Part shown: one piece after another, positions 2-42,034 of the stretch
Numbering within the stretch: the stretch's first letter is position 1
How the letters are laid out: each line of letters opens with the position of its first letter
From: Bacillota bacterium
GTDB taxonomy: Bacteria; Bacillota; Dethiobacteria; DTU022
Direction of reading: 5' to 3'
DNA: 64,000 bases
Assembly: GCA_011389985.1 (NCBI GenBank)
Contig: JAABTH010000007.1
Coordinates: 21,769 to 85,768, forward strand
The notes under the pieces: generated by a model
The model's input: only the letters and a program-made list of their open reading frames with translations
What the model was told of the DNA's origin: nothing
Databases searched by the model: none
Position numbers and translations under genes: made by a program

Positions 2-1327
2 CTGGTCGGTTATAACTTAAGCCTTGTAGAAAACTGTTATGCAGCAGGGTTAGCCAAAGGCGGATCAAGTTTCGTTGGCGGACTGGTGGGAAAGAATTTG
101 GCCAGTTCAAAAGTTAAGGGAACTATAATTAACAGTTATTACGCTGTTGAGTCTGGTGGCCCTGCAGATATTTATGGCGAGCATCTTAATACCGCTGACA
201 TGAAGGAAATAGCTTCATTTACAGGTTGGAGTATGGCAGAAACTGGAGATTTCGACCCTGATGATGTTAAAGAGTGGTATATTTTTGCAGGGCAGGCCTT
301 TCCAAAACTTTTTTGGCAGTATGATATTTTGACAATCAAAGCGGCCAGCCATCAGAAAATCTATGGCTCGGCTGATCCTGTGTTTTCTTTTATCTATGCT
401 GGTTTCAGGCCCGGGGATAATGAGCAGATGCTTGACGGAAATCTGACTGCTAACCGGGAGCCAGGTGAGAGTGTGGGAAGCTACATTGTTAAATCATCAG
501 GAGTGACCGCGCTATGCAACAGTTACCTGCTGGTTTTTGAAGACGAACTGCTTGCTATCACTCCGAAAACCTTGGTTATAAAGGCTGACAGTTTTAAAAA
601 AGAGCATGGTCTGTTTTACAAATTTGAAGGCTCGGAGTATAGTTCTACAGGGTTGGTTGAAGGTGATCAGCTTTATTCAGTATTACTTGTCAGCGCCGGA
701 GCAGATGAGAGCGCTGCAGTAGGAGATTATCTTATCTCGGTCAGCGATGCTCTGGGTGTGGGACTTGAAAACTATAATATCCTTTATCTTGATGGAACTT
801 TAACTGTTTTTAAGGCAGGTATTACTAAAGCTCCTTCATTCGGGACCCCTGCTCAATCTTTCCCTGCTTATGAATATGACTGTGCATTACCGCCAAAGTT
901 TAATTCAATCCTACCCCTGGTTTTTGTACCCGAAAATTTAAAGCACATTCAGCAGCCGCTCATCACTACAGCTTTCATTAAGGAAGGTACAGCAGAAGAT
1001 CTTGCTACCGCTGCTGTAGTATACGAGAAAACCAGGCAGCAGTTTGAGGTAAACAGTTATAACCTGTCAGCCAGAGAATCAGCAATTGTCCAGGTAGAAC
1101 TTGCAGTTACGAAAGCGGCTGTGTATGCGCTTGATTACCTGCTTACAGCAGAAAAGGGCCTTCTTGATCTAATTGCTGAAGCTTATGCCGAGGCTGTCGA
1201 ACTCTTCTATGAGTACAAAGAATTCCTGACAGAGGAAGAATCGATGCTGGTTAAAGATTTACTAACTGCCGTGGAAAGGGTTCTTTTAAATGATGGATTT
1301 ATTGCGGAGGTTACCCTTACGCAATAA
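2..1327 (+). CDS. C-terminal part of a large surface/adhesin-like protein with GLUG motif and two MBG-type repeats. It is 5'-truncated by the window edge.
   Basis: The frame is open from nt 2 with no stop before the first Met at 86. An N-terminal GGLVGKN...YYAVESGG segment is GLUG-like. Two repeats match the MBG-domain pattern: LTIKAASHQKIYGSADPVFSFIYAGF and LVIKADSFKKEHGLFYKFEGSEY...NYNILYLDGTLTVFKAGI. The C-terminus is helical. Confidence 0.5.
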   Translation: MVGYNLSLVENCYAAGLAKGGSSFVGGLVGKNLASSKVKGTIINSYYAVESGGPADIYGEHLNTADMKEIASFTGWSMAETGDFDPDDVKEWYIFAGQAFPKLFWQYDILTIKAASHQKIYGSADPVFSFIYAGFRPGDNEQMLDGNLTANREPGESVGSYIVKSSGVTALCNSYLLVFEDELLAITPKTLVIKADSFKKEHGLFYKFEGSEYSSTGLVEGDQLYSVLLVSAGADESAAVGDYLISVSDALGVGLENYNILYLDGTLTVFKAGITKAPSFGTPAQSFPAYEYDCALPPKFNSILPLVFVPENLKHIQQPLITTAFIKEGTAEDLATAAVVYEKTRQQFEVNSYNLSARESAIVQVELAVTKAAVYALDYLLTAEKGLLDLIAEAYAEAVELFYEYKEFLTEEESMLVKDLLTAVERVLLNDGFIAEVTLTQ

Positions 1328-1680: not shown

Positions 1681-4600
1681 ATGTCCAGTAGTGTTGCAGC
1701 AGTTAGTAACAATCGTCGTTCCTATGCCCGCATCACCGAAGTTCTTGATTTACCAAACCTGATTGAAGTTCAGAGCAGTTCCTTTGAATGGTTTTTAAGC
1801 CAGGGATTAAAAGAAATATTTGAAGATTTTTCTCCTATCCAGGATTTTACCGGCAACTTGGTTCTGGAATTTTTTGACTATACGCTCGGTGAACCGAAGT
1901 ATTCGGTTGACGATTGCAAAGAGCGTGATGCCACCTATGCCGTCCCCCTCAAAGTGAGGGTGCGCCTGATCAACCAGGAAACCGGTGAAGTTAAGGAGCA
2001 GGAAGTTTTCATGGGCGATTTTCCGATGATGACTGAAAACGGCACCTTTATTATTAACGGTGCTGAAAGGGTTATCGTCAGCCAGCTGGTTCGTTCGCCG
2101 GGGGTTTATTTTAAAAAGCAGCCTGATCCTACCGGTAGCACAGGCAAAGAGCTTATCAGCGCTACAATTATTCCGAATCGTGGAACGTGGCTCGAGTTTG
2201 AAACAGATGTATCAGACAATATTTTTGTCAGGGTCGACCGGACCAGAAAAATTCCGGTAACAGTCCTGCTAAGAGCAATTGGTTACGGCACTGACGAGCA
2301 GATTCTTGAGCTTTTGGGAAATGATTCGCGCCTGGCAGAGATTATTGAAAAGGACCATACCGATTCTGAAGATTCGGCTTTACTTGAGATATACAAGCGT
2401 CTCCGTCCCGGTGAACCTTTAAATGTTGATAACGCCCGCTCGCTTTTTGAGTCGCTCTTCTTTGACGGTAAAAGATATGATTTTGCTCATGTCGGCCGCT
2501 TTAAGGCCAATAAAAAGCTTTCAATGTCTAACCGTTTATTCGGCCAGGAACTTGCCGAAGATATTGTAGATCCCCTAAGTGGTGATGTTATTTACCCCGC
2601 GGGAACGGTTATTGATGAAGAAGCTGGCAAAATCATTGATGAACACGGGATAAAGCGAGCTAAAGTCAGGCATCGCGATGAAGTTCATCTTGTGATCGGT
2701 AACGGTACGGTTGAACTCTCAACCAGGCACCTGGTTGTTGCCGATATTATTGCTACAGTAAGCTATATTCTCAATCTTTTTGACGGTATCGGCTATATAG
2801 ACGATATTGATCACCTTGGGAACCGACGTTTGCGCAGTGTTGGTGAACTGCTGCAGAACCAGTTCAGAATCGGTTTGTCGAGAATGGAAAGGGTTGTCCG
2901 GGAGCGGATGACCATCCAGGATGTAGAAGCAATCACACCGCAGGCTTTGATCAACATCAGACCGGTAATTGCTTCAATCAAAGAATTTTTTGGCAGCAGC
3001 CAGCTTTCGCAGTTCATGGATCAGACCAACCCGCTGGCCGAGCTTACCCATAAACGTCGTCTTAGCGCTCTTGGTCCGGGCGGCTTAAGTCGTGAGCGAG
3101 CCGGGTTTGAAGTGCGCGATGTACATCACTCTCACTATGGTCGGATTTGCCCGATTGAAACTCCTGAGGGACCGAACATTGGTTTGATTGGTTCACTGGG
3201 CACTTATGCCCGCATTAACAATTACGGTTTTATTGAAACTCCTTACCGCCGCGTTGATAAAAAAGAAGGGCGGGTAACTTCTGAAATAGTCTACCTTACA
3301 GCCGACGATGAAGACCGTTTTGTAATTGCCCAGGCGAACGCTATCCTAAATGATGATGGCCGTTTTGCAGCCAACCGGGTTGCCTGTCGCTACTATTATG
3401 ATACGGTTATGCGAAGCCCTAACGATGTCGATTTTATGGACGTTTCACCGAAACAGCTGGTTAGTGTGGCCACCGCTCTAATTCCGTTCCTTGAGAACGA
3501 TGATGCCAACCGCGCCCTGATGGGTGCGAACATGCAGCGCCAGGCTGTGCCCCTTTTAAAGACCGAAGCACCCCTGGTGGGAACCGGCCTTGAATACAAG
3601 GCTGCTGTTGATTCCGGGGCAGTGGCAATCTGTTTGAATGACGGAGAGGTTGTAAGGGTTACAAGTAATGAAATCATAGTTCGTCGTGCTGAAGACGGTG
3701 AAGGCCAAAACTATATCATCAACGGACGAACACGTGAGAAATTTGAAACAGATCGCAAGCCAGGTCTTGATAACGGCCTGGATATATATGTATTGCAAAA
3801 GTTTAAACGTTCCAACCAGGGTACTTGTGTTAACCAGCATCCCATTGTCAGGCACGGTCAGACGGTAAAGGTCGGTGAAGTTATTGCCGATGGTTCATGT
3901 ACGAGCAAAGGTGAGATGGCTCTGGGCAGAAATGTGCTGGTGGCGTTCCTCCCCTGGGAAGGTTACAACTATGAGGATGCAATACTGATCAGTGAAAAAC
4001 TTGTTAAGGACGATGTGTACACTTCTATTCATATTGAAGAGTACGAGTCGGAAGCCCGTGACACCAAGTTGGGTCCTGAAGAGATTACCCGCGACATACC
4101 AAATGTTGGTGAAGAAGCGCTAAAAGATCTTGATGGGCGCGGTATTATTCGAGTCGGCGCTGAAGTAAGAGCCGGTGATATTCTGGTCGGCAAAGTGACC
4201 CCCAAGGGTGAAACAGAGCTGACTGCAGAAGAAAGGCTATTAAGAGCAATATTTGGCGAAAAAGCGCGTGAGGTTCGCGATACTTCTTTGCGTATACCTC
4301 ACGGTGAATCCGGTATAGTAGTTGATGTAAAAGTCTTTAACCGTGAAGAGGGCGATGAACTTTCTCCGGGAGTTAATCAGCTGGTGCGAGTTTATGTGGC
4401 CCAGAAGCGGAAAATTTCTGAAGGAGATAAAATGGCCGGCAGACACGGTAACAAGGGTGTAATCGCCCGTATTCTGCCTGAAGAAGATATGCCCTTCATG
4501 CCTGACGGCTCTCCCCTGGAGATTGTTCTTAATCCTCTCGGGGTTCCTTCAAGGATGAATATCGGCCAGGTGCTGGAGGCTCACCTTGGCTGGTCGGCAA

Positions 4601-5541
4601 AAGTTCTTGACATTGAGATTGCCTCACCAGTTTTTGACGGAGCATCGGAAGATGATGTATTTGCCGCATTTTCCGAGGCCGGACTTCCCGAGAACGGCAA
4701 AACTATTCTTTACGACGGCCGCACCGGTGAGCCTTTTGATGAGAAGATTACAGTAGGATATGTTTACATGTTGAAACTGGCCCACCTTGTTGATGATAAA
4801 ATTCATGCTCGTTCAACCGGTCCGTACTCGCTGGTTACACAGCAGCCGCTTGGCGGTAAAGCCCAGTTTGGCGGGCAGCGTTTCGGTGAGATGGAAGTTT
4901 GGGCTCTTGAAGCCTACGGCGCGGCTTATACATTACAGGAGATTCTCACTGTTAAGTCTGATGATGTCGTCGGACGGGTTAAAACCTATGAAGCAATTGT
5001 CAAAGGTGAGAATATTCCTGAACCGGGCGTGCCGGAATCATTCAAGGTTTTAATCAAGGAGCTGCAAAGTCTCTGCCTAGATGTTCGTGTCCTCAGCGAG
5101 GAAACAGGCGAGGTGGAGATTAAGGAAGGTGACGACGATACCGATTATCGTCGCCTTGATGTAAATATTGAAGGAATGGAATCAGATGAAGACGATCTTG
5201 ACCATTTCGTTTACCGTAAGGAATCTGCAGCCGATCCTACAAATGCAGAAAAGGTTAAATCAGGTAAAGTTGAAGAACCCGCCACTAAACCCGCCACTAA
5301 AGATGAAGATATTGTTGTTACAAGCGGGGAAAAAGAAGATCAGGTAGTGGTTTCGAAGGTAATAAAACCTGATGAAGTCGAGGAAGTATCCCTCGAACAG
5401 CTTGAAGAACTTGAAAAAAATGATGACGATGAAAGTGATGAAGAGCTGAAACCGAAGCGTGCGTCGAAAAAACCAAGAATTGAAGAAGAGCCGGATGAAG
5501 AACCGGACGAGCTTGATGAAGACGAAGAAAACATCTACTAG
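1681..5541 (+). CDS. rpoB: DNA-directed RNA polymerase subunit beta with an unusually long acidic C-terminal extension
   Basis: 1286-aa ORF. The N-terminal [15 protein letters not shown] and internal motifs are diagnostic of RpoB. SD-like GGGGAG lies upstream. Confidence 0.97.
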
Positions 5542-5578: not shown

Positions 5579-8500
5579 TTGTTGGATGTTAATAATTTTG
5601 ATGCCTTAAAAATTGGTCTGGCTTCATCTGAACAAATTAGAGCCTGGTCGAGAGGTGAAGTCAAGAAACCGGAAACAATCAATTACCGGACTCTCAAGCC
5701 GGAACGTGAAGGGCTCTTCTGTGAAAAAATATTCGGTCCGCAAAAAGACTGGGAATGCCATTGCGGCAAATACAAACGGGTTCGTTACCGCGGTATTGTT
5801 TGTGATCGCTGTGGCGTTGAGGTAACCAGGGCTAAGGTGCGCCGGGAGCGGATGGGCCATATTGAGCTGGCCGCTCCGGTATCTCACATCTGGTATTTTA
5901 AGGGAATTCCCAGCAGGATGGGCCTTCTGCTCGATATGTCGCCGCGGGCTCTTGAAAAAGTACTCTATTTTGCCGCTTATGTGGTAATTGATCCCGGTGA
6001 TACCTATTTAAGCAAGAAACAGCTTTTGACAGAAGTCGAATACCGCGAGTATTTCGAAAAATACCAGGCGCTTTTTAAAAGCAATAAAGGTTTCAAGGCC
6101 GAGATGGGTGCAGAAGCGGTTAAAAAACTATTAACCGGCCTTGATCTTGAAGAGATTGCTTTAGAATTACGTGAAGAGCTGGCTACATCAAGCGGACAGA
6201 AAAAAGTGCGCGCAATTCGCCGTCTTGAAGTGGTAGAGGCGTTCAGACAGTCTGGAAACGATCCATCCTGGATGATCCTGGATGCTATACCGGTAATTCC
6301 ACCCGACCTGCGGCCAATGGTTCAGCTGGACGGTGGACGGTTTGCAACATCAGATCTAAATGATTTATACAGAAGAGTAATTAACCGCAACAATCGTCTG
6401 AAGCGGCTTCTTGATCTTGGCGCTCCTGATATCATTGTCCGTAATGAAAAACGAATGCTGCAGGAAGCTGTTGATGCATTAATTGACAACGGCCGCCGCG
6501 GCCGCCCGGTAACCGGACCCGGTAATCGCCCCCTTAAGTCACTCAGTGACATGCTTAAAGGAAAACAGGGACGTTTCCGTCAGAACTTGCTTGGCAAGAG
6601 GGTTGACTATTCAGGTCGCTCGGTTATTGTTGTTGGTCCCGAGTTAAAACTTTACCAGTGCGGCTTACCGAAAGAGATGGCTCTTGAACTATTTAAACCC
6701 TTCGTGATGAAGCGTTTGGTCAGTGACGGCCTTGCTCATAATATAAAGAGCGCAAAACGCATGGTTGAAAAGGTGCGTCCCGAAGTATGGGATGTTCTTG
6801 AAGAAGTAATTAAAGATCACCCTGTGCTGCTCAACAGGGCGCCTACCCTGCACCGTCTTGGTATCCAGGCTTTTGAACCTGTCCTGGTCGAGGGGCGCGC
6901 AATTCAGATTCACCCTCTGGTTTGTTCGGCTTATAACGCTGACTTTGATGGCGACCAGATGGCCGTTCACGTGCCGCTTTCTGCTGAAGCCCAAACTGAA
7001 GCGCGTTTATTAATGCTATCAGCACATAATATACTTAATCCAAAAGAAGGGCGTCCGGTAACCACCCCTACCCAGGATATGGTGCTTGGTTGCTATTACC
7101 TTACCCTTGAAAAAGACGGGGTAAAAGGTGAAGGAAAAGTTTTCCCCGATACGGATGAAGCAGTAATGGCTTATGAACTCGGTTATCTTGATCTTCATGC
7201 GCGTATTCTTATCAGGGCTGCCGGTTTTAAAGGTCGGGATTTTGCGCGCCGTAAAAAATATATTTTAACTACTGCCGGCAAGGTAATCTTTAACGAGGTC
7301 TTTCCGAAAGACTTCCCCTTCATGAATAATGCTGACTTTAACGATTCTCTGCCTGAAAATACTTTTGTTCCAATTAAAGGCCTTGATCCGACACAGTTGC
7401 TTAAAAACCAGCCGCGGAATAAGGCGATAAAAAAAGATTTTCTGGCGGAACTTATTGCCCGCTGTTATCGCATGTATGGTAACACTAAGACGGCAGAAAT
7501 TTTAGACCAGGTTAAAAAACTCGGATTCCATTATGCTACCCGCGCCGGGGTTACTGTCGCGGTCAGCGATATTCTGGTTCCGGAGCAAAAACAGGAAATT
7601 CTCAAAGATGCTGAAGAAAAAGTGGAAACTACTGAAACTCAGTACTCACATGGCCTGATAACGGAAAGCGAACGTTATGATCGGGTCATCGAGGTTTGGG
7701 GCAAGGCAAAAGACCAGGTTACAAAGGCCCTGATGAGTGGTCTTGATGAGTTAAACCCCATCTACATGATGGCTCATTCAGGGGCCCGTGGTAATGAATC
7801 GCAGATAACGCAGCTTGCCGGAATGCGCGGTCTTATGGCCGACCCGACCGGTAGGATTATTGACGTTCCCATTAAGGCTAACTTCCGTGAGGGACTGACA
7901 GTTTTGGAGTACTTCATTTCAACGCACGGCGCCCGGAAAGGGCTCGCCGATACGGCACTAAAAACTGCCGACTCAGGTTACCTTACCCGTCGTCTTGTCG
8001 ATGTTGTTCAGGATGTTATTGTCCGTGAAGATGATTGCGGCACCGGTCAGTCTATCGGATTAAGCGAATTTCTCGAAAGCGATGAGCCACTTGAGGAAGC
8101 AGTAAATCGTTTGATTGGTCGCTATACCATGGAGCCGGTTTATCACCCCGAAACAGATGAGGTTGTAATACCGGCTGATACCCTAATTACGGAAGAACTG
8201 GCTGTGAAAGTTGCTAAACTTAATATTACCGAAGTGCGATTCCGCTCGGTGCTTACCTGTAAAACACGTCACGGAGTTTGTGTCAAGTGTTATGGACGCG
8301 ATCTCGCTAACGGAAAGATTGTTAATGTAGGCGAAGCCGTCGGCATTATAGCCGCCCAGTCAATTGGTGAACCAGGCACTCAGCTGACAATGCGTACTTT
8401 CCACACCGGCGGTGTGGCCGGCGACGATATTACCCAGGGTTTACCCAGGGTTGAAGAGCTTTTTGAGGCTCGTAAACCTAAGGGACAGTCGCTGATTGCT

Positions 8501-9675: not shown

Positions 9676-10053
9676 ATGCCGACAATTAACCAATTAGTTC
9701 GTAAGGGCCGCAAGCAAATGACCAAAAAATCGTCTGCTCCGGCGCTTGAACGTTCCCCGCAGAAAAGGGGCGTTTGCACCCGTGTTTCGACAACCACACC
9801 AAAGAAACCGAACTCGGCCTTACGTAAAATTGCCAGAGTCCGCCTGACCAATGGGATTGAAGTAACCGCCTACATTCCAGGGATTGGGCACAACCTGCAG
9901 GAACACTCAGTGGTCCTTGTCAGGGGTGGAAGAGTAAAGGATTTACCTGGTGTGCGCTATCACCTGGTAAGGGGAGCTCTCGATGCGGCCGGTGTTGAAA
10001 ACAGGGCGCAGGGACGTTCGAAATACGGCACAAAGCGGCCGAAGGCGCAGTAA
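9676..10053 (+). CDS. rpsL: 30S ribosomal protein S12
   Basis: [12 protein letters not shown]...[10 protein letters not shown] is a canonical S12 sequence. Confidence 0.97.
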
Positions 10054-10072: not shown

Positions 10073-10549
<477 letters not shown>

Positions 10550-10667: not shown

Positions 10668-12743
10668 ATGAGCAAGGAAGCACAATTGAGCCAGATTAGA
10701 AATATTGGTATTGCTGCACATATTGATGCCGGCAAAACAACAACAACAGAGAGAATTCTTTTCTATACCGGGCGTTTGCACCGGTTGGGTGAAGTGCATG
10801 AAGGAACAGCTACTATGGACTGGATGGCTCAGGAACAGGAACGCGGTATTACGATTACTTCGGCTGCAACTTCCTGCCGGTGGCGCGATTTTTTAATTAA
10901 TATTATCGATACGCCCGGGCACGTGGACTTTACAGTTGAGGTTGAACGTTCATTGCGTGTTCTTGATGGAATGGTAGCAATCTTTTGCGCCAAGGGCGGG
11001 GTTGAGCCGCAATCGGAAACTGTTTGGCGTCAGGCTGATCGATACCATGTACCGCGATTGGCCTACATAAATAAAATGGATGCAGTTGGCGCAGATTTTT
11101 TCAGTGTGTTGGGCCAGCTTCAGGACAGGCTTCATGCTCATGCCCTTCCGCTTCAGCTTCCGGTTGGTACTGAAAGTGAATTTGCCGGGGTTATTGACCT
11201 TATTTCAGAGCGCGCAATTATATATGAAGATGATCTTGGCACGCGCAGTAACGAGAGCGATATTCCTGAAGATATGTTAGAATTGGTGGCTGAATATCGG
11301 GAGAAGATTCTTGAAGCAGTTGCTGATGTAGACGACTCTTTGATGGAAAAATACTTTAGTGGTGAAAAAATTAGTTCTGACGACATATATAAGGCATTGC
11401 GCAAGGCGGTTATCCATGATAATCTTGTGCCTGTTTTGTGTGGTTCATCATATAAAAATAAAGGTGTACAGCTGCTGTTGGATGCTGTTGTTAACCTTAT
11501 GCCTTCACCAGTTGACGTTGGCGCAGTAAAAGGGTTTAATCCCAACAACGGGGAGGAAGATTTTCGCTTGCCCGCAAATGATGCGCCTTTCGCTGCCCTG
11601 GTTTTTAAAATTATGGTGGATCCCTTTGTCGGTAAATTAGCTTTTGCCCGGGTTTATTCCGGTACGCTTGAAAAAGGATCGGTAGTCTACAACGCTGCGC
11701 GACAGAAGCGTCAGCGGATAGGACGCCTGATTCGCATGCATGCCAATTTCCGGGAGGAAATTGATCGCGCCACAACCGGTGATATTATTGGGATAATTGG
11801 TCCAAAAGAGATCAGTACCGGCGATACACTCTGTGCGCTCGATAAGCAGATTGTTTTAGAGAATATTCAATTTCCCGAGCCGGTTATTTCTATTGCTATC
11901 GAACCAAAAACTAAAGCTGACCAGGATAAAATGACTGTTTCTATGCAGCATCTGTCCGAAGAAGATCCGACTTTCCAGATTTACAGCGATAAGGAAACGG
12001 GACAGACAATTATATCCGGGATGGGCGAGCTTCACCTGGAAATCATAGTTGACCGTTTGCTGCGCGAGTTTAAAGTACAGGCTAATGTCGGCAATCCGCA
12101 GGTAGCTTACAAGGAAACTGTTTTAGGTGAAACATCTGCTGAAGGTAAATTTGTCCGTCAGTCAGGTGGACGCGGTCAGTATGGTCACGTTGTAATTGAG
12201 CTTTCACCGCTTGAATCAGGTGGCGGATTTGTTTTTGAAAACAAAATTGTTGGCGGAGCAATTCCGAAAGAGTTTATCCCTTCAGTGGAAGGCGGTTTGA
12301 AAGAATCAGCTTTAAACGGTGTTCTCTCCGGTTACCCGGTTGTAGATATCAAGGTTGTCTTGAAAGACGGTTCTTTCCACGAAGTCGATTCATCGGAAAT
12401 GGCATTCCGCATTGCCGCTTCAAAGGCGCTTAAAACTGCGCTATCCAAAGCGAAACCGGTACTTTTGGAACCGGTAATGAAAGTTGAAGTTACCGCTCCC
12501 GAGGAGTATGTTGGCGATATTATCGGAGATTTTACCAGCCGTCGCGGACGTATTCTCGGCACTGAGTTAAAAAGCGGGCTGCAGATAGTCAGGGGTGTAG
12601 TGCCTCTATCCGAAATATTTGGATACGCTACCGAACTACGTTCGCATACTCAGGGCCGTGGAGTATATAATATGGAGTTTTATCGTTATGAAGAGGTACC
12701 ACAGAGCATTGCTCAAAAAATTATCACTCAAAGCGGTGCTTAA
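10668..12743 (+). CDS. fusA: Elongation factor G
   Basis: 691 aa. The G1 motif [17 protein letters not shown], and EF-G domain IV/V sequences are present. Confidence 0.97.
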
Positions 12744-12765
12744 TAATAGTTGGAGGTGTATTTAG

Positions 12766-13968
12766 TTGGCTAAGCAGAAGTTTGAGCGGACGAAACCGCA
12801 CGTTAACGTAGGGACGATTGGTCACGTGGACCACGGTAAGACCACGCTGACGGCGGCGATGACTTATTGTTTATCGAGCGCCGGTTTTGCGAGCAAGACC
12901 TCGTTTGACGAGATTGACAAGGCGCCGGAAGAGAAAGAAAGAGGCATAACCATAGCGACAGCGCACGTGGAATATGAAAGTGAGCATCGTCACTATGCCC
13001 ATGTAGACTGCCCCGGACACGCAGACTATGTCAAGAACATGATTACCGGAGCGGCGCAGATGGACGGAGCGATTTTGGTAGTATCGGCGGCAGATGGGCC
13101 GATGCCGCAGACCCGCGAGCACATCTTGCTATCGCGTCAGGTCGGTGTTCCTTACATCATCGTCTTTTTAAACAAAGCCGATATGGTAGACGACCCGGAA
13201 CTCTTAGAACTGGTAGAAATGGAAGTAAGAGACCTGTTAAGCGAATACGAATTCCCCGGAGATGACACCCCGGTAATTATTGGTTCAGCCCTTAAAGCCG
13301 GCGAATGCGGTTGTGGTGGCAGAGAATGTGAATGCTGCAAGCCGATCTGGGACTTAATGGACGCGCTTGACAACTATATACCGATGCCCGAAAGAGAAAA
13401 AGACAAACCCTTCTCGATGCCGATCGAAGACGTCTTTTCGATTACCGGCCGTGGCACTGTCGTAACCGGCAGAGTTGAAAGAGGCCAGATTAAAGTAGGC
13501 GACGAAGTAGAAATTGTTGGATTTGAAGAAAAGCCCCGCAAGACCGTTGCTACCGGAGTTGAAATGTTCCGCAAGCTGATGGATTACGCTGAGGCAGGCG
13601 ATAACATTGGCGTACTGCTGCGCGGGATAGACCGTGAATCAGTAGAGCGCGGCCAGGTATTGGCCAAGCCGGGGACGATCAAGCCGCATACCAAGTTTAA
13701 AGCCGAAGTATACGTGCTGAAGAAAGAAGAAGGCGGTCGTCACACACCCTTTTTCCAGGGTTACCGTCCGCAGTTCTACTTCAGGACAACTGACGTTACC
13801 GGTAACATTACCCTTCCGGAAGGGATGGAAATGGTCATGCCCGGCGATAACGTCAACATGGATATTGAACTGATCACTCCCATCGCCATGGAAGAAGGTT
13901 TGCGTTTCGCTATCCGCGAAGGCGGTCGCACCGTCGGCGCAGGCGTAGTTACCGCTGTAAGCGAATAA
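12766..13968 (+). CDS. tuf: Elongation factor Tu. It has a TTG start and a Cys-rich insertion in domain 1.
   Basis: 400 aa with [21 protein letters not shown] and NKAD G-motifs. It carries the extra segment [13 protein letters not shown] at aa 179-191. Confidence 0.96.
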
Positions 13969-14073
13969 GTAATTTAAGTTAAGTAGCGATGAAGTAGAAG
14001 GTTGCCGGCAAAGCAGTCGGGGAATTTTTACGGAGCAGCTCTGATTTAATCAGGCGATAAGGAGGATTTGTTC

Positions 14074-14382
14074 ATGGCTAACCAAAAAATCAGGATCAGA
14101 TTGAGAGCTTTTGATCATCATTTACTAGATCAGTCTGCCGGTAAAATTGTTGAAACGGCGCGCCGCACCGGTGCAGATGTATCCGGCCCGGTTCCTTTGC
14201 CGACAGAAAGAAGCCTTTACACAGTTATACGTGCGCCGCATAAATATAAAGACTCCCGGGAGCAATTCGAAATGCGCACTCATAAGCGTCTGATTGACAT
14301 CTTAGAACCGACACCGAAGACAATCGACGCTTTGATGAGGCTTGATTTGCCTGCCGGTGTTGACATTGAGATTAAGCTCTAA
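14074..14382 (+). CDS. rpsJ: 30S ribosomal protein S10
   Basis: [15 protein letters not shown]... The ATG at 14074 sits 8 nt after AAGGAGGA. The ORF track's earlier TTG at 14068 is unlikely. Confidence 0.95.
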
Positions 14383-20511: not shown

Positions 20512-20697
20512 ATGGCCAAGAAATCATTAATTGCCAAGGCCAAGAGAGAGCCCAAATTTGCGGTTCGCGGTTATAACCGGTGCCACATTTGCGGTCGCCC
20601 GAGGGCATATTTACGTAAATTCGGCCTGTGCCGCCTTTGCTTTCGTCATCTGGCCAACGAGGGAAAAATACCGGGAGTTAAAAAAGCCAGCTGGTAG
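20512..20697 (+). CDS. rpsN: 30S ribosomal protein S14, type Z (zinc-binding, 61 aa)
   Basis: [20 protein letters not shown] Zn-ribbon in the spc-operon position. Confidence 0.95.
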
Positions 20698-23268: not shown

Positions 23269-24525
23269 TTGCTGGAAACAATTCGTACTGCCTGGCGGAT
23301 TAAAGAGCTCAGACAACGTATCCTCTTTACTCTGGCCATGTTTGTGGTTTTCCGGGTTGGCTCTGCTATTCCGGTGCCAGGTGTGGATGCATCCTTGCTG
23401 GCTGAGTTTTTCCAGCAAGATACAATTTTCGGTTTTGTCAACATTATCGGTGGCGGAAACCTGGAGAATTTCACCATATTTGCACTGGGTATTATGCCTT
23501 ACATTAACGCCTCTATTATCATGAACCTGTTGACAATAGTTATCCCAAAACTGAAAGAGTGGAGCCAGGAAGGTCCGGAAGGCCGGAAGAAAATTTCACA
23601 GATTACCCGATATGGAACAATCGTTATTGCTGTAATACAGGCCCTTGGTCTTGCAACCCTGATTGCCGGTGAAGCTGTTGTAGATAAAACAACTCTATCT
23701 TATATAACGATTATCATCTCAATGACTGCCGGAACTGCTTTTCTGATGTGGATGGGTGAACTGATAACTGAAAAAGGTATCGGTAACGGTATATCACTAA
23801 TCATTTTTGCCGGTATTGTAGCCGGATTCCCGATTGGTGTGGCTATGGCGGCAGAGCAGTATCGTTTTGGGCAGATCAACATGCTGATCATCGGCATAGT
23901 CGTCTTGGTTCTTCTCGGTCTGATTGTCGGTATTATTGCTCTCGATCAGGGGCAGCGCAGAATCAATGTTCAGTACAGCAAGCGTGTGGTCGGACGTAAG
24001 ATGTACGGCGGCCAGGCGACACACATCCCGATGAAAGTAAACCAGGCAGGGGTTATTCCTGTAATCTTCGCGTCAGTGCTTTTGAGTTTTCCTCAGACAC
24101 TGGTCAGCTTCATTCAGCATCCGGTGGCGCAGAGAATTGCTGACATGCTTAGCTGGGGAAGCAACCTTAACCTGGTGTTATATATACTATTAATTATACT
24201 GTTCACCTATTTTTATACCGCAGTGCAGTTTGATCCTTTCCAGGTGGCAGGTAATATCAAGAAATACGGCGGTTTTATCCCGGGTCTGAGACCCGGTCGC
24301 CCGACAGCCGAATACCTGGCCAGGGTAACATCAAGACTGACTACAGCAGGTGCATTTTCACTTGCCTTTATTGCGGTTTTCCCGATATTACTGGAGAGAT
24401 TGTCAGGTATGAGTATAGTTTTTGGCGGCACCGGGCTGATTATTGTGGTCGGTGTTGTTCTTGAGACATTTAAGCAAATTGAAAGCCACATGCTGATGCG
24501 CAGTTATCGTGGCTTTATGAAGTAG
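23269..24525 (+). CDS. secY: Preprotein translocase subunit SecY (TTG start)
   Basis: 418 aa, 10 predicted TM segments, with SecY signature regions. Confidence 0.96.
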   Translation: MLETIRTAWRIKELRQRILFTLAMFVVFRVGSAIPVPGVDASLLAEFFQQDTIFGFVNIIGGGNLENFTIFALGIMPYINASIIMNLLTIVIPKLKEWSQEGPEGRKKISQITRYGTIVIAVIQALGLATLIAGEAVVDKTTLSYITIIISMTAGTAFLMWMGELITEKGIGNGISLIIFAGIVAGFPIGVAMAAEQYRFGQINMLIIGIVVLVLLGLIVGIIALDQGQRRINVQYSKRVVGRKMYGGQATHIPMKVNQAGVIPVIFASVLLSFPQTLVSFIQHPVAQRIADMLSWGSNLNLVLYILLIILFTYFYTAVQFDPFQVAGNIKKYGGFIPGLRPGRPTAEYLARVTSRLTTAGAFSLAFIAVFPILLERLSGMSIVFGGTGLIIVVGVVLETFKQIESHMLMRSYRGFMK

Positions 24526-24534
24526 TGAACAAGG

Positions 24535-25290
24535 ATGATCAAGTTTAAATCAGCCAGGGAAATTAGTATGATGCGCGATGCCGGCAAAATTGTTGCCGAA
24601 GTACTTGCGGAGATGGACACAGCAACCAGGGAAGGCGTAACCACCGCTATGCTTGACAAGATTGCTGAAAAAATTATCCGTAAAAGTGGAGCAGAACCGG
24701 CTTTTCTCGGTTATCATAATTTCCCGGCTTCAATCTGCACCTCTGTTAACAATGAGGTGGTTCATGGAATTCCCGGGTTGCGCAGGCTCGAAGAGGGCGA
24801 TATAATCAGCATTGACGTTGGTGCCCGATTAAAAGGTTACTATGGAGATGCAGCGGCAACTTTTCCGGTTGGTAAGATATCATCTGAAGCTCGGAAATTA
24901 ATTGATGTAACCAGGGGATCTCTGCAAGAAGCTATCAAAACAATGCAGGTCGGAAAAAGGCTCTCTGATGTTTCTTGTGCGGTTCAGGCTTATGTTGAGC
25001 ACAGCCACTTAGCGGTGGTGCGTAATTATGTGGGCCATGGAATCGGGCAGGATATGCATGAAGAACCACAGGTTCCGAATTTTGGTCTGCCGGGACGCGG
25101 CCCCGTGCTTCAGCAGGGAATAGTACTGGCCATCGAGCCAATGGTTAATCTAGGCACCTGGGAAGTTAAGGTCCTTAAGGACCAATGGACAGTAGTAACT
25201 GCCGATGGAAGCCTGTCTGCTCACTTTGAGCATACAGTGGCGTTGGGCGAAAACGGGCCCGAGGTGCTGACCTCTTCTGACCCGAATTAA
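24535..25290 (+). CDS. map: Methionine aminopeptidase type I
   Basis: 251 aa with pita-bread-fold metal ligands (D...D...H...E...E pattern). It directly follows secY with no adk in between. Confidence 0.93.
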   Translation: MIKFKSAREISMMRDAGKIVAEVLAEMDTATREGVTTAMLDKIAEKIIRKSGAEPAFLGYHNFPASICTSVNNEVVHGIPGLRRLEEGDIISIDVGARLKGYYGDAAATFPVGKISSEARKLIDVTRGSLQEAIKTMQVGKRLSDVSCAVQAYVEHSHLAVVRNYVGHGIGQDMHEEPQVPNFGLPGRGPVLQQGIVLAIEPMVNLGTWEVKVLKDQWTVVTADGSLSAHFEHTVALGENGPEVLTSSDPN

Positions 25291-25834: not shown

Positions 25835-25948
25835 ATGAAGGTGAGGCCTTCAGTAAAAAAAATGTGTGAGAAGTGTAAAATAATCCGGCGCAAGGGCAGG
25901 GTTGTGGTTATCTGCCAGAATCCGAAACACAAACAAAGACAGGGATAA
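25835..25948 (+). CDS. rpmJ: 50S ribosomal protein L36
   Basis: 37-aa [40 protein letters not shown] with a CxxC...CxxxxH zinc ribbon. It is absent from the ORF track because it is under 60 aa. GGAGGT lies 8 nt upstream. Confidence 0.93.
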
Positions 25949-26842: not shown

Positions 26843-27469
26843 ATGGGACGCCATACTGAAGCAGTTTGCCGTTTATGTCGCAGAGAAAATGATAAGCTTT
26901 ACCTTAAAGGAGATCGCTGTTTTTCAGATAAATGTGGAATAGTACGTCACGCTTACCCCCCTGGAGAACACGGTCAGGGTCGCCACAAGTTTTCAGAGTA
27001 CGGGCAGCAGCTGCGTGAAAAGCAGAAAGCCCGCCGCATTTATGGTGTTATGGAAAGACAGTTTCGCCGTTACTTTAAAGAAGCCGACCGCCGTAAAGGT
27101 GTTACCGGTGAAATATTAATGCAGCTATTGGAGAGCCGACTTGACAACACAGTATTTCGCATGGGTTTGGGCCGTTCACGGGCAGAATCAAGGCAGCTTA
27201 TAAATCATGGCCATTTTCAGGTTAACGGTCGTAAGGTTGATATCGCATCATACCTGACAAAGGTTGGAGATGTTATAACCGTTAGGGAAAATAGTAAAAG
27301 TAAGCCGGTCTTCAAGCTTATTGCCGAAGACAGAGGACAGCAGGGAATCGTAGACTGGCTGGAAGTTGATCACGAAAAGCTTGAAGGGCGAGTCTTAAGG
27401 ATTCCTCAGCGCGATGAGATCGACGTGCCTGTTACTGAGCACCTCATTGTCGAACTCTATTCACGCTAA
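26843..27469 (+). CDS. rpsD: 30S ribosomal protein S4 (zinc-binding form)
   Basis: 208 aa with an N-terminal CRLCRRE...CFSDKC Cys4 cluster and an S4 domain. Confidence 0.95.
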
Positions 27470-38871: not shown

Positions 38872-40770
38872 TTACAGCTCCTTTTTACCGGCATCACGCA
38901 TACTGTATCCACCCATTGCTTCCACCTGTTCTTTAAAAAAAGGATCTTCGATTATTTCTAGCAGGGTTTTACAATCTTTGCTTTTGAAAAAATCGTCGCT
39001 CATCAAAAGGTCGTACCTTTCTTCAACCAGGGGAATAAAATCAAGATCGAATGCTTTGGCGGCCGGCAGAATACCTAAACCAACCTTTGCTGTTCCGGCT
39101 TTAACAGAAGCGGCAACGTTTAAGTGAGTATGCTCTTCGCGTTCGTAGCCATATACCTGGTCGGGTTTAAAACCAGCTTCTCCCAGCATGTGATCAAATA
39201 GTAGGCGAGTACCTGCGCCACGCTGGCGGTTGACAAAGCCCAGCTTATTATTGACCAGGTCGCTGATATCTTTTAACTTGTCAGGATTGCCTTTCGGTAT
39301 AATCCAACCCTGCATTCGGTAGGCCAGGTTAACCAGGTGTAACTTTTGCCCTGGCAGTATTTTATTAATATATGGCAGATTATAGGTTTTTGTTTCAGGA
39401 TCAAATAGGTGTATCCCGGCCAAATGAGCCTGGCCTCTTCCTATTGCGGCTATGCCACCCATGCTTCCTAAGTGTGAAGAAGAAAGATTCATTAGGGGGT
39501 TACGTTCTTTAAGGGTAGTGGCAAGCAGATCAATTACAAGGTCATGGCTTCCGGCGGCCAGCAGGTTATGCCTGAGTTCGTTTTCAGGGCGGTACAATTC
39601 AAGTTCTACGGTTTGATCCTGTTCATAGCCAAGTGAGTTGGCCGGAATAACTAAAAGGCCATCGGCCCGCACCAGGGACATTGTAACGCCTGCTCCCCTG
39701 GTTAGAGGGTTGGCAATGAAGCGATCTTTTACATAGCCTATTGTCATTCTTACATACTCTTCGACACCTGTTTCTGATACAACCCGCCTCCCCAGGATTA
39801 CACTAAGTTTTTGGCGTTTCGGAACCGGAAGGCCTAAATAATCAAAGATAAGTGGTTGCACAAACCATTCCAGGCTCATGTAAGCCGAAACGGGGTAACC
39901 GGGTAGTCCGATTACAGGTATTGATCCAATTTTACCAAGTATAGTAGGTTTACCGGGTTTTGTAGCCACTCCATGCAGAAATACTTCACCCATTTCTGCG
40001 ATAACCGGGTAGGTGTAATCTTTTTCTCCTGCTGATGATCCTGCATTAATAATGATCAAGTCAGCTTTTTCAGTCGCTTCAGATACAGACTGGCGGATTT
40101 TTTCGGGTTTATCCGGGACAATGGAAAAAATAACAGGTTCAGCTCCCCATTCAAGCAGGTAAGATGCAATAACGGTGCTGTTAAAGTCAGGAATGCTGCC
40201 CTGGCCTCTTTCAATACCGGGATCAACCACTTCTGATCCGGTTGGTATTATTACTGCTACCGGTTTTGCCTTAACCTCGATTTTGGTTATACCGCCTGCT
40301 AAAAGAGCGCCTAAATCAGGCGGTCTCAGTTTGTGCCGCGCTGGAACGATAAGTTCGCCTGTAACTACGTCTTCTCCTACAGGGCGAACATGCTGCCATG
40401 GTGTGGCCGGGGCAATAATTTCAGCTTTTAGGTCAGATAGAAGCTGGATATCTTCGATTTTTATCACAGCGTCGAAACCGGGAGGAAGGGGATTTCCCGT
40501 GTTTACGTTAATATATTTATCACCGGAAGTAAGTTTAAGGGGATTCTGATCAGAAGCGGAAAAAGTCAATTCTGCCTTTACCGCTATGCCATCCATGGCA
40601 GCAGCATGATAACCGGGCATGGAAAGCCTTGCAAAAACAGGCTTATTGGTCACACGACCAAGCGCGTCGGTAACTCTTACTGTTTCCGGGTGTCCCGCGA
40701 TGGGAGCATTATTTAGTAATAATTCAAGTGCTTTCTGCCGGGGAGTATTGCTTAAGTAAACTTTTCTCAT
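38872..40770 (-). CDS. moeA: Molybdopterin molybdotransferase MoeA fused to a C-terminal periplasmic-binding-protein-like (molybdate/tungstate-binding type) domain
   Basis: 632 aa. The N-terminal ~400-aa MoeA core is followed by a ~220-aa PBP-like domain, the COG1910 architecture. Confidence 0.8.
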   Translation of the reverse strand: MRKVYLSNTPRQKALELLLNNAPIAGHPETVRVTDALGRVTNKPVFARLSMPGYHAAAMDGIAVKAELTFSASDQNPLKLTSGDKYINVNTGNPLPPGFDAVIKIEDIQLLSDLKAEIIAPATPWQHVRPVGEDVVTGELIVPARHKLRPPDLGALLAGGITKIEVKAKPVAVIIPTGSEVVDPGIERGQGSIPDFNSTVIASYLLEWGAEPVIFSIVPDKPEKIRQSVSEATEKADLIIINAGSSAGEKDYTYPVIAEMGEVFLHGVATKPGKPTILGKIGSIPVIGLPGYPVSAYMSLEWFVQPLIFDYLGLPVPKRQKLSVILGRRVVSETGVEEYVRMTIGYVKDRFIANPLTRGAGVTMSLVRADGLLVIPANSLGYEQDQTVELELYRPENELRHNLLAAGSHDLVIDLLATTLKERNPLMNLSSSHLGSMGGIAAIGRGQAHLAGIHLFDPETKTYNLPYINKILPGQKLHLVNLAYRMQGWIIPKGNPDKLKDISDLVNNKLGFVNRQRGAGTRLLFDHMLGEAGFKPDQVYGYEREEHTHLNVAASVKAGTAKVGLGILPAAKAFDLDFIPLVEERYDLLMSDDFFKSKDCKTLLEIIEDPFFKEQVEAMGGYSMRDAGKKEL

Positions 40771-40792
40771 TGTAGCGCTCCTTCATCTTGTT

Positions 40793-42019
40793 CTAATCCC
40801 ATAAAATAATCTCTACGGGGGTGCCTTCAATCAAGCCTTCGCTTTCAGCCGGAATAACCAGCAAACCATCAGCTTCAGCCAGTGTTCGCAGCATTCCTGA
40901 TCTTCCGAAAACCGGGATAGCCGTAACACCCTTATCATCAGGCTCCAAGATAACTCTTACATATTCAGTACGCCCTGAACGTGAGGAAATATTACGGCTT
41001 AATACAGCCCTGACGGTTGGGCTGAATAATTTGTCTTTATGTCCTGCCAGGCGGTGTATAATTGCTTTGCCGAATATAGCGAATATATTCAGAGCAGAAA
41101 CAGGGTGGCCCGGCAAACCAAGTACCGGCTTTACGTTGCAGTTAGCAATTAATGTAGGTTTACCTGGTTGAATGGCAATACCTTCAACCAGAAGGCCTGG
41201 TTTGCCCAGTTCGTTCATGGTCGCGGCAGTGAAATCCCGGCTGCCGACAGAACTGCCGCCTGAAAAAACCAGGAAATCAACTTTTTCAAGCATTGATTTG
41301 CTTTTTTCTAAAAAAATATCAAATATGTCCGGAAGAATTCCTCCATATACAATGTCGGCTTCCAACTGTGAAGCCAGGTAAAACAGTGCCGGTGCATTGC
41401 TGTCGCGGATCTGTCCAGGTTTGAGACTGGCGCTATGGTAATCAACAAGTTCGTCGCCGCTGGAAAAAAAACCTATTTTAGGGCGGCGATAAACATTTAC
41501 ACTGGTTATGCCAAGGGAAGCCAGCATGCCTATTTCCGGCGCACGAAGACGATGGTTGCTGGAAAGAACCGCGGTGCCTTTTTTTATGTCTTCTCCCCGG
41601 TGTATTACATTTTCACCGGGGGCAACCTGGCGGAAACTTTGAATCAGTGAACCGGTTGCTTCAGTGTCTTCTATCATGATGACGGCATCGGATCCTTCAG
41701 GCAGCATCCCTCCTGTATGAACCAGACAGCACTGTCCTTCACGGATCTGCGGCGCTGTTTCACCCATGAGAACTTCACCTATGCACTCAAGCATAGCCGG
41801 TATACCTTCTCCTGAGCCAAATGTGTCACGGGCAAATACTGCATACCCGTCAACAGTTGATCGATCAAAACTAGGTACATCTTCAGTAGCGCAGATAGTT
41901 TCAGCCAGAGAGCGGCCCCCTGATTTTTCAAGAAGCACTTCTTCCGGTTCAAGTGGCAAAAAGTTATCGTTGATCAGTTTAAAAACATCTTCAGGGGCTG
42001 TGACCCTCATAAGTTTCAT
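40793..42019 (-). CDS. moeA: Molybdopterin molybdotransferase MoeA (second paralogue)
   Basis: MoeA core MKLMRV... The ATG at 42019 sits 5 nt after GAGGTG. The ORF-track TTG at 42022 is one codon upstream. Confidence 0.88.
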   Translation of the reverse strand: MKLMRVTAPEDVFKLINDNFLPLEPEEVLLEKSGGRSLAETICATEDVPSFDRSTVDGYAVFARDTFGSGEGIPAMLECIGEVLMGETAPQIREGQCCLVHTGGMLPEGSDAVIMIEDTEATGSLIQSFRQVAPGENVIHRGEDIKKGTAVLSSNHRLRAPEIGMLASLGITSVNVYRRPKIGFFSSGDELVDYHSASLKPGQIRDSNAPALFYLASQLEADIVYGGILPDIFDIFLEKSKSMLEKVDFLVFSGGSSVGSRDFTAATMNELGKPGLLVEGIAIQPGKPTLIANCNVKPVLGLPGHPVSALNIFAIFGKAIIHRLAGHKDKLFSPTVRAVLSRNISSRSGRTEYVRVILEPDDKGVTAIPVFGRSGMLRTLAEADGLLVIPAESEGLIEGTPVEIILWD

Positions 42020-42034
42020 CAAAACACCTCGGTT

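What the first reader, a model, noticed from the sequence alone, without database searches (positions are those of the whole stretch)
13303..13344. Five-cysteine insertion ([13 protein letters not shown]) inside domain 1 of EF-Tu
Relative to canonical EF-Tu (…ALKALEGDAEWE.KI.EL…), this tuf gene replaces the acidic helix segment before the WE/IW motif with a cluster of five cysteines in 12 residues. A CxC…CxCC arrangement is reminiscent of a metal-binding knuckle. The protein is also 400 aa and starts with TTG. If conserved, it could couple translation elongation to zinc or redox status.
Basis: seen in the sequence. Interest (0 to 1): 0.5.

Follow-up and report, generated by a model that had tools for sequence, protein, structure and literature searches.

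The report
Conserved four-cysteine metal knuckle in EF-Tu
This bacterium's translation elongation factor EF-Tu carries a real, conserved four-cysteine loop that probably holds a zinc ion; the loop occurs in EF-Tu of many bacterial phyla, is absent from every solved EF-Tu structure, and was not described in any paper I could search.

Summary
The str-operon tuf gene (12766-13968, 400 aa, TTG start) encodes [13 protein letters not shown] at residues 179-191 (nt 13300-13338).

Four of the five cysteines (C181, C183, C188, C191) form a conserved motif, C-x-C-G-x3-C-x2-C. The fifth (C190) is specific to this lineage.

The motif is intact in 115 of the 120 closest homologues. Four others have His or Asp at one ligand position. 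A DNA-pattern scan found it in tuf genes of at least 120 species genomes across a dozen or more phyla. About 4-5% of an arbitrary metagenomic sample of tuf genes carry it.

It sits right after the G5 guanine-recognition motif, in a loop 5 residues longer than in E. coli EF-Tu. No PDB EF-Tu has it, and eight literature searches found no description.

A related genome has two tuf copies and both carry the motif. So this is not a zinc/zinc-free paralogue pair.

Best reading: a structural Cys4 (probably Zn2+) knuckle, an old "C+" form of EF-Tu that has been disrupted repeatedly, as happened to zinc-ribbon ribosomal proteins. Metal binding is inferred, not shown. A zinc- or redox-sensing role is untested.

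The parts
12766..13968 (+). tuf, elongation factor Tu, 400 aa, TTG start, stop included
   Evidence: ORF list and translation. TIGR00485 EF-Tu equivalog scores 738.5 bits against a cutoff of 522.4. Pfam GTP_EFTU, D2 and D3 all match. The gene lies between fusA (10668-12743) and rpsJ (14068-14382).
12752..12768 (+). Shine-Dalgarno GGAGGTG (12752-12758) and TTG start codon (12766-12768)
   Evidence: Read directly. The same TTG and GGAGGTG are seen in str-operon tuf of relatives L019, L121 and L126. TTG is rare overall: 3 of 71 C+ tuf genes.
13285..13293 (+). G5 guanine-recognition motif S174-A175-L176, immediately before the knuckle
   Evidence: Sequence; invariant in the alignment.
13300..13338 (+). 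Cysteine cluster [13 protein letters not shown] (aa 179-191). Conserved ligand codons: C181 13306-13308, C183 13312-13314, C188 13327-13329, C191 13336-13338. Lineage-specific C190 is 13333-13335.
   Evidence: The ligand quartet is CCCC in 115/120, HCCC in 2, CDCC in 2 and absent in 1 of the closest homologues. The same motif occurs in all 120 pattern hits in species genomes. AF2 pLDDT is 89-93 for residues 171-200.
13339..13377 (+). Last helix of the G domain ([15 protein letters not shown]2 helix 192-204), which the second cysteine pair caps
   Evidence: AF2 secondary structure; alignment to PDB EF-Tu.

Best explanation
The segment is a compact Cys4 metal-binding knuckle, most likely holding one structural Zn2+. 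Its ligands are C181, C183, C188 and C191, in the motif E-C-G-C-G-K-x-[DE]-C-x-x-C. It is built into the surface loop that joins the G5 (SAL) guanine-recognition motif to the last helix of the EF-Tu G domain. The first pair (CxC) lies in a 5-residue insertion. The second pair (CxxC) caps the N-terminus of the helix. The inferred job is to rigidify and stabilise this loop and the adjoining nucleotide-base pocket; in other lineages the site holds metal-free loops of different lengths, such as the 10-residue Thermus insertion. It is an old 'C+' form of EF-Tu, inherited mostly vertically and disrupted repeatedly to 'C-' forms. This parallels the zinc-ribbon ribosomal proteins, whose C+ forms this organism also keeps. 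The protein otherwise works as ordinary EF-Tu. Shown here: presence, position, conservation, distribution and absence from solved structures. Inferred: metal binding, identity of the metal and the stabilising role.
For: Four ligand positions are invariant or nearly so, while the residues between them vary. The rare replacements are His or Asp, which can also bind metal. The pattern is all-or-none: among 107 arbitrary metagenomic tuf genes, 4 have the full motif, 1 has a different Cys4 at the same site (CxxC-x5-CxxC, L176), and the rest have 0-2 Cys there. TGT and TGC are both used at each ligand codon across 120 genomes, so selection acts on the amino acid. All 120 pattern hits in species genomes are tuf, from Bacillota, Desulfobacterota, Actinomycetota (Thermoleophilia), Patescibacteria, anammox Planctomycetota, Nitrospirota, Omnitrophota, Chloroflexota, Armatimonadota, Aquificota, Gemmatimonadota and Leptospiraceae. 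C+ sequences group by taxon and diverge to 67% identity. With the loop masked, C+/C+ identity (0.76) is about the same as C+/C- (0.745). An NJ tree needs at least 18 state changes, against 64 for shuffled labels. C- nearest neighbours often keep the loop length with the cysteines replaced. The window's own RNA polymerase beta' zinc-binding domain, [21 protein letters not shown], uses the same E-C-x-C-G-K...C-x-x-C-G signature; that this beta' site binds Zn through four Cys is established knowledge. Window S14, L36 and S4 are all Cys4 (C+) forms, and all 18 L33 genes next to C+ tuf genes are C+. The taxa overlap with the groups that keep C+ ribosomal proteins (PMC3087516, Table 2). AF2 is most confident at residues 171-200, pLDDT 89-93. 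Aerobic and facultative lineages such as Sulfobacillus, Thermoleophilia, Gemmatimonadota and Armatimonadia also carry the motif, which favours an oxygen-stable metal such as zinc.
Against: No metal was measured or modelled. The structure tool returns no coordinates, so S-S distances could not be checked. The AF2 model is poor overall (mean pLDDT 65.3). A 4-residue spacer between the cysteine pairs is unusually short, and I know of no solved example of exactly CxCx4CxxC. The stabilising role is inferred from position only. The overlap with C+ ribosomal-protein lineages has no matched control set of C- tuf genomes. The NJ tree is crude and sampling is biased: C+ sequences came from a motif search and C- sequences from a random sample.
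Confidence: 0.65

Rival explanations
1. Regulatory switch. The zinc-thiolate site senses oxidants or zinc supply. Oxidation or zinc loss unfolds the loop next to G5, lowers nucleotide binding and slows elongation. It could coexist with a structural role.
For: The CxC plus CxxC ligand layout recalls the Hsp33 zinc centre (my own knowledge). The site adjoins the G5 motif. Many carriers are strict anaerobes. This lineage has an extra cysteine inside the knuckle (C190).
Against: Nothing here bears on regulation. In the related genome both tuf copies carry the motif, so no zinc-free backup exists there. Aerobic lineages also carry it. Most Cys4 sites in the translation apparatus are considered structural.
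Confidence: 0.15
2. The four cysteines bind iron, either a rubredoxin-like Fe(Cys)4 or a small Fe-S cluster, rather than zinc. This would suit the anaerobic lifestyle of many carriers.
For: Fe(Cys)4 and Zn(Cys)4 need the same geometry. CxC pairs ligate 2Fe-2S in CDGSH proteins, and sulfate-reducer adenylate kinases bind Co, Zn or Fe at their Cys4 site (both from my own knowledge). Carriers are enriched in anaerobes.
Against: The motif also occurs in aerobic or acidophilic lineages (Sulfobacillus, Thermoleophilia, Gemmatimonadota, Armatimonadia). EF-Tu is among the most abundant cell proteins, so a cluster needing assembly machinery would be very costly (inference). Eleven residues is tight for a cluster.
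Confidence: 0.08
3. There is no metal. The cysteines form disulfides, or they are simply a conserved loop sequence with another role such as a contact with a partner.
For: Metal binding has not been shown. This loop is a general hot spot for lineage-specific insertions of unrelated sequence.
Against: Disulfides are unlikely in the reducing cytoplasm of anaerobes. All-or-none conservation of exactly four Cys, His/Asp substitutes and an alternative CxxC-x5-CxxC version at the same site are typical of metal sites.
Confidence: 0.07
4. The cluster is a sequencing or assembly artefact, or a chance cluster.
For: None found.
Against: The reading frame is intact. The motif is present in 115 of the 120 closest homologues and in at least 120 species genomes from independent projects. 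The shuffle probability is about 2e-5.
Confidence: 0.01

Closest known systems
Canonical bacterial EF-Tu (E. coli TufA/TufB; Thermus thermophilus/aquaticus EF-Tu)
   Same: About 71-74% identical over the full length, with the same three domains, G1-G5 motifs and str-operon position. Thermus also has a lineage-specific insertion at exactly this loop.
   Different: E. coli has 'EGDAEWE' here with no cysteines and 5 fewer residues. Thermus has a 10-residue cysteine-free insertion. None of the PDB EF-Tu chains matched (about 58 distinct sequences) scored as carrying the Cys4 motif.
C+/C- zinc-ribbon ribosomal proteins (L31, L32, L33, L36, S14, S18, L28, S4; Makarova et al. 2001 from my own knowledge; Chen et al. 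2009, PMC3087516)
   Same: One orthologous translation protein exists as a Cys4 form and a cysteine-free form. The pattern is all-or-none and patchy across phyla, with apparent repeated disruption. The C+ lineages overlap (Clostridia, delta-proteobacteria, Aquificae and others). This window's S14, L36 and S4 are C+.
   Different: EF-Tu is not on the published lists. The site is an 11-residue knuckle in a loop of a large GTPase, not a zinc-ribbon domain. In the one related genome with two tuf copies both are C+, so no Zur-type C+/C- pair was seen.
RNA polymerase beta' N-terminal zinc-binding domain (Cys-x-Cys-x12-Cys-x2-Cys)
   Same: It has the same ligand signature, E-C-x-C-G-K ... C-x-x-C-G, and is present in this window's own rpoC at nt 5756-5812. 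It is a structurally proven Zn(Cys)4 site (my own knowledge).
   Different: The spacer is 12 residues rather than 4. The protein and fold context are unrelated. This is a resemblance, not homology.
Adenylate kinase LID-domain Cys4 zinc site in Gram-positive and anaerobic bacteria, versus the hydrogen-bond network in E. coli AK (my own knowledge)
   Same: A structural Cys4 metal site in an abundant nucleotide-binding housekeeping enzyme. It is kept in Clostridia-like, thermophilic and sulfate-reducing lineages and replaced by non-metal residues elsewhere.
   Different: A different protein and motif (CxxC-x16-CxxC/D). Metal binding is shown experimentally for AK but not for EF-Tu.
Zinc knuckle of archaeal/eukaryotic initiation factor 2 gamma, an EF-Tu paralogue (my own knowledge)
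   Same: A Cys4 knuckle inserted into the G domain of an EF-Tu-family GTPase.
   Different: From memory it is inserted elsewhere in the G domain, not after G5, so it is an independent acquisition. The position was not tested here.
Hsp33 redox-switch zinc centre (CxC ... CxxC)
   Same: The same two ligand pair types.
   Different: The pairs are about 30 residues apart in Hsp33. Hsp33 has a demonstrated redox function; EF-Tu has none shown.

Membership tests
Elongation factor Tu (TIGR00485 equivalog) | Whole-protein score above the curated cutoff | tested here: met
   738.5 bits against a cutoff of 522.4.
Elongation factor Tu | Three-domain architecture (GTP_EFTU, D2, D3) and G1-G5 motifs | tested here: met
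   Pfam PF00009, PF03144 and PF03143. GHVDHGKT, T62, DCPGH, NKAD and SAL were read in the translation. Foldseek top hits are all EF-Tu.
Elongation factor Tu | str-operon context rpsL-rpsG-fusA-tuf-rpsJ | tested here: met
   S12 at 9676-10053, S7 at 10079-10549, EF-G at 10668-12743, tuf, then S10 at 14068-14382.
Structural Cys4 zinc knuckle | Four Cys/His ligands in two closely spaced pairs | tested here: met
   C181-x-C183 and C188-x-x-C191.
Structural Cys4 zinc knuckle | Ligands conserved while the residues between them vary; substitutions only to other ligand residues | tested here: met
   CCCC in 115/120, HCCC in 2 and CDCC in 2. Positions between the ligands are variable.
Structural Cys4 zinc knuckle | Metal bound with tetrahedral geometry | not testable with these tools
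   The AF2 output gives pLDDT (89-93 locally) but no coordinates. No solved structure has the motif.
C+/C- translation-apparatus proteins (Makarova 2001; Chen 2009) | Cys4 and cysteine-free orthologues both widespread, all-or-none, patchy across phyla | tested here: met
C+/C- translation-apparatus proteins | A C- paralogue alongside the C+ gene in one genome (zinc-starvation backup, Zur-regulated) | tested here: not met
   The related genome GCA_050951985.1 has two tuf copies 16 kb apart and both are C+. The window has a single tuf. Zur boxes were not searched.
RNA polymerase beta' zinc-binding-domain-like motif | E-C-x-C-G-K...C-x-x-C-G ligand signature | tested here: inconclusive
   The signature is shared with the window's rpoC, but the spacer is 4 rather than 12 residues and there is no evidence of common origin.
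Hsp33-type redox switch | Oxidant-triggered zinc release that changes activity | not testable with these tools
   There is only the motif resemblance.

The most novel reading that the evidence does not exclude
EF-Tu, one of the most abundant cytoplasmic proteins, is a stoichiometric zinc protein in a sizeable minority of bacteria (Clostridia-like Bacillota, Desulfobacterota, anammox bacteria, CPR, Thermoleophilia and others). That would make it the dominant cellular zinc pool. The knuckle next to G5 would also act as a zinc- or redox-sensitive brake on elongation. The Cys4 form would be ancestral to Bacteria, and its repeated loss part of the same zinc-economy trend seen in ribosomal proteins.
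Probability: 0.12. Interest if true: 0.8.

Novelty: new variant of a known kind. Interest (0 to 1): 0.55.

Why it matters
EF-Tu is among the best-studied and most abundant bacterial proteins. Yet every solved structure and, as far as I know, all biochemical work come from cysteine-free forms.

- If the knuckle binds zinc one-to-one, EF-Tu would add a very large term to the zinc budget of Clostridia-like, sulfate- and metal-reducing, anammox and CPR bacteria.
- **Zinc economy.** It would extend the C+/C- zinc-economy story from ribosomal proteins to a translation factor.
- **Ancestral reconstructions.** It bears on reconstructions of ancestral EF-Tu used to infer ancient temperatures. Those in the PDB lack the motif.
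- **Redox target.** It would give a defined site to test for redox control of elongation in anaerobes.

The test is simple: measure metal in a purified protein.

Tried and rejected
- **Literature.** Eight full-text searches found nothing on a Cys or zinc site in EF-Tu. They combined EF-Tu with zinc, Cys4, CXXC, zinc ribbon or knuckle, the string 'ECGCG', anaerobe genera, and the Thermus loop. The library holds open-access papers only, so this is not proof of absence.
- **Source genome.** An exact-sequence look-up of the window's EF-Tu found no record. The source genome and any second tuf outside the window could not be examined.
- **Structure prediction.** AF2 with a shallow 49-sequence alignment gave a mediocre model: pLDDT 65, TM about 0.54 to PDB EF-Tu. 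No coordinates are returned, so ligand geometry could not be measured.
- **Lineage peculiarity.** I considered a Clostridia-only feature and rejected it.
- **Recent horizontal spread.** I considered a recent spread of one C+ allele and rejected it. C+ sequences group by taxon and are as diverged from each other as from C- forms.
- **C+/C- paralogue pair.** Not found in the one relative that could be checked.
- **Single Cys in C- forms.** Many C- EF-Tu have one Cys just before the helix ('KCIWELM'). I considered it a remnant of the fourth ligand, but it aligns two positions later, so I did not count it.

Full report
**What is in the window**

The ORF at 12766-13968 (+) encodes a 400-aa protein that lies between fusA (10668-12743) and rpsJ, downstream of rpsL and rpsG. 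It scores 738.5 bits on the TIGR00485 EF-Tu equivalog, against a cutoff of 522.4. It has all three EF-Tu Pfam domains. It starts at TTG 12766, seven bases after GGAGGTG.

Residues 179-191 read [13 protein letters not shown], which is nt 13300-13338. Cysteines lie at 181, 183, 188, 190 and 191. Shuffling the protein's own residues gives five Cys in 11 residues in only 4 of 200,000 trials. The window holds no second tuf.

**Is the cluster conserved?**

The 120 best homologues from a 5.8-billion-protein collection are 84-96% identical. They come mostly from uncultured Bacillota labelled Dethiobacteria or Syntrophomonadaceae.
- 115 of them have Cys at all four of positions 181, 183, 188 and 191.
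- Two have His at 181, two have Asp at 183, and one lacks the motif.
- Position 190, the 'fifth' cysteine, is Cys in only 24 of 119. Otherwise it is S, D, A, N or H.

The conserved unit is therefore C-x-C-G-x3-C-x2-C. G184, C188 and C191 are invariant and C181 and C183 are at least 90% conserved in a 49-sequence alignment, while the residues between them vary.

**How widespread is it?**

All 120 hits are tuf genes with the motif at the same site.

By record title the hits break down as follows:

| Group | Hits |
|---|---|
| Bacillota (Moorella, Sulfobacillus, Pelotomaculum, Desulforudis, Caloramator, Syntrophomonas, Negativicutes and others) | 39 |
| Desulfobacterota / 'delta-proteobacteria' (Pelobacter, Geobacteraceae, Desulfocarbo, Thermosulfurimonas and others) | 26 |
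| Actinomycetota (mostly Thermoleophilia) | 11 |
| Patescibacteria / CPR | 8 |
| Planctomycetota (Scalindua, Jettenia, Kuenenia) | 6 |
| Nitrospirae, Omnitrophota, Chloroflexota, Armatimonadia, Aquificota, Gemmatimonadota, Leptospiraceae and others | remainder |

The cross-phylum consensus is E-C-G-C-G-K-x-[DE]-C-x-x-C-[GK]-x-I. G at the second position (114/120), K (83/120) and D/E (111/120) were not imposed by the pattern. Both TGT and TGC are used at each of the four Cys codons.

For a sample unbiased with respect to the loop, I scanned metagenome contigs for the G3 motif DCPGHADY. Of 107 evaluable tuf genes:
- 4 have the canonical motif.
- 1 (L176) has a different Cys4 at the same site, ECTTCDVSGACEWC, which is CxxC-x5-CxxC.
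- 102 have 0-2 cysteines there.

So the C+ form is a minority, roughly 4-5% in this arbitrary sample, and the pattern is all-or-none.

**Where it sits**

Alignment to PDB EF-Tu sequences places the cluster directly after the G5 motif S174-A175-L176. The loop is 5 residues longer than in 394-aa EF-Tu ('ALEGDAEWEAKI') and 5 shorter than in Thermus ('ALEEMHKNPKTKRGENEWVDKIW'). The second pair, C-E-x-C, aligns with 'AEWE'/'NEWV' at the start of the last G-domain helix.

None of the PDB EF-Tu chains matched, about 58 distinct sequences, scored as carrying the cysteines. A motif-centred query ranked cysteine-free sequences first. These chains include four reconstructed 'ancestral' EF-Tu proteins.

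The AF2 model is poor overall (mean pLDDT 65.3). Its best-defined part is residues 171-200 (pLDDT 89-93), with helix 175-181, loop 182-191 and helix 192-204. Foldseek returns only EF-Tu structures, at 71-79% identity. No coordinates are available, so thiol distances could not be measured.

**Second copy**

The window's exact protein is not on record, so its genome cannot be searched.

In a related Dethiobacteria assembly (GCA_050951985.1, contig JBMNKC010000003.1) there are two tuf genes 16 kb apart. One lies before rpmG-secE-nusG-rplK and one after fusA. Both read ...ALECGCGSRDCESCSPIW.... This is unlike the zinc/zinc-free paralogue pairs of ribosomal proteins.

**Evolution**

Full-length C+ EF-Tu sequences find their nearest neighbours within their own taxon: Thermoleophilia with Thermoleophilia, Pelobacter with other 'delta' sequences, Sulfobacillus together, Nitrospirae together. 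They diverge to 67% identity, with a median of 76%.

I then compared 104 C+ and 90 C- sequences with the loop masked.
- Median identities are C+/C+ 0.762, C+/C- 0.745 and C-/C- 0.735.
- A neighbour-joining tree needs at least 18 changes of state, against a mean of 64 for shuffled labels.
- So the state is heritable, but C+ and C- lineages are interleaved.

C- sequences whose closest relative is C+ often keep the loop length with the cysteines replaced. L171, 'EGEKSELGEDSV', is 89% identical to Pelobacter C+. L192, 'EEVEAKKIDGEWF', pairs with Leptospiraceae 'ECGCGKPDCEWC'.

Because the motif is so specific, one origin with many disruptions is more plausible than many gains. This is an inference from a crude tree with biased sampling.

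**Why a metal site, and why zinc**

- The four positions behave like ligands. They are all-or-none, substituted only by His or Asp, and replaced in one lineage by another Cys4 arrangement.
- The signature E-C-x-C-G-K...C-x-x-C-G also occurs in this window's RNA polymerase beta' subunit, [21 protein letters not shown] at nt 5756-5812. From established knowledge, that is the Zn(Cys)4 zinc-binding domain. These were the only two CxC...CxxC matches among ORFs of 100 aa or more in the window.
- The organism keeps the Cys4 forms of S14 (20512-20697), L36 (25835-25948) and S4 (26843-27469).
- All 18 L33 genes found beside C+ tuf genes are Cys4 forms.
- Chen et al. 2009 (PMC3087516, Table 2) list Clostridia, delta-proteobacteria, Aquificae, Acidobacteria and Thermotogae as the groups keeping C+ forms of all or nearly all the zinc-binding ribosomal proteins they tabulated. 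The first three of these overlap with the C+ EF-Tu carriers.
- The motif in aerobic or facultative lineages argues for an oxygen-stable ion.
- The very high copy number of EF-Tu argues against a cluster that needs assembly machinery (inference).

**Mechanism proposed**

One Zn2+ ties the inserted CxC turn to the CxxC cap of the last G-domain helix. This stiffens the loop that follows the guanine-recognition SAL motif. Other lineages fill the site with metal-free loops.

Presence, position, conservation and distribution are shown. Metal binding, the identity of the metal and the stabilising effect are inferred. A redox- or zinc-sensing role is possible but has no evidence. Iron binding and a metal-free loop are less likely rivals. 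An artefact is excluded.

**Novelty and score**

Eight searches of open-access full text found no description of a cysteine or zinc site in EF-Tu. A zinc-homeostasis review and the 'Zinc world' survey of metals in universal proteins do not list one. Such sequences have probably sat in public databases for years, so an unindexed mention cannot be excluded.

I class this as a new variant of a known kind: an EF-Tu with an uncharacterised Cys4 knuckle that extends the known C+/C- pattern of translation proteins. Interest is moderate (0.55). The feature is real, widespread and easy to test, but the function is inferred and most likely structural.

Noticed in passing
window 59851-62156: An ArsR/SmtB-family metalloregulator (121 aa) overlaps the start of a Zn/Cd-type P1B heavy-metal ATPase (647 aa; TIGR01525, TIGR01512). 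This is a likely metal-efflux pair in the same window as the putative zinc EF-Tu.
   Followed up: partly
window 5756-5812 (rpoC, aa 60-78): The beta' zinc-binding domain [19 protein letters not shown] has the same E-C-x-C-G-K...C-x-x-C-G signature as the EF-Tu knuckle. It is the only other CxC...CxxC hit among ORFs of 100 aa or more in the window.
   Followed up: partly
window 20512-20697, 25835-25948, 26843-27469: Ribosomal proteins S14 (61-aa type, CxxC...CxxC), L36 (CxxC...C...H) and S4 (C9, C12, C26, C31) are all the zinc-binding C+ forms.
   Followed up: partly
window 86-1327 and 1681-5541: rpoB is preceded by a 413-aa ORF with MBG (YGX-type) domains rather than the usual rplJ-rplL. In the related genome rplJ-rplL sit there, with a second tuf further upstream.
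   Followed up: no
window 23269-25290: secY is followed directly by methionine aminopeptidase. The adenylate kinase gene usually found between them is absent from this position.
   Followed up: no
window 38872-42022 (- strand): Two adjacent MoeA-family molybdopterin molybdenumtransferase genes. One is fused to a C-terminal PBP-like (periplasmic-binding-protein-type) domain.
   Followed up: no
L176 (metagenome contig Ga0074195_1027413): This tuf gene has a different four-cysteine arrangement at the same loop: ECTTCDVSGACEWC (CxxC-x5-CxxC). It is a second type of putative knuckle.
   Followed up: no
L069 and L060: A 'Woesearchaeota archaeon' MAG contig carries a bacterial-type C+ tuf. A 'Deltaproteobacteria' MAG tuf is 94% identical to Thermoleophilia tuf. 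Both look like mis-binned contigs or wrong labels.
   Followed up: no
L121/L124 (GCA_050951985.1) and L019, L126: The str-operon tuf copy of Dethiobacteria relatives also starts with TTG behind GGAGGTG, while the copy upstream of rpmG-secE-nusG starts with GTG. TTG is rare among C+ tuf overall (3 of 71).
   Followed up: partly
metagenome loci L128, L133, L148, L168, L185 and others: Many cysteine-free-loop EF-Tu carry one conserved Cys just before the helix ('KCIWELMDAVD'). Seven of 120 C+ forms have an extra Cys at the same spot ('KCKCI'). Its meaning is unknown.
   Followed up: no
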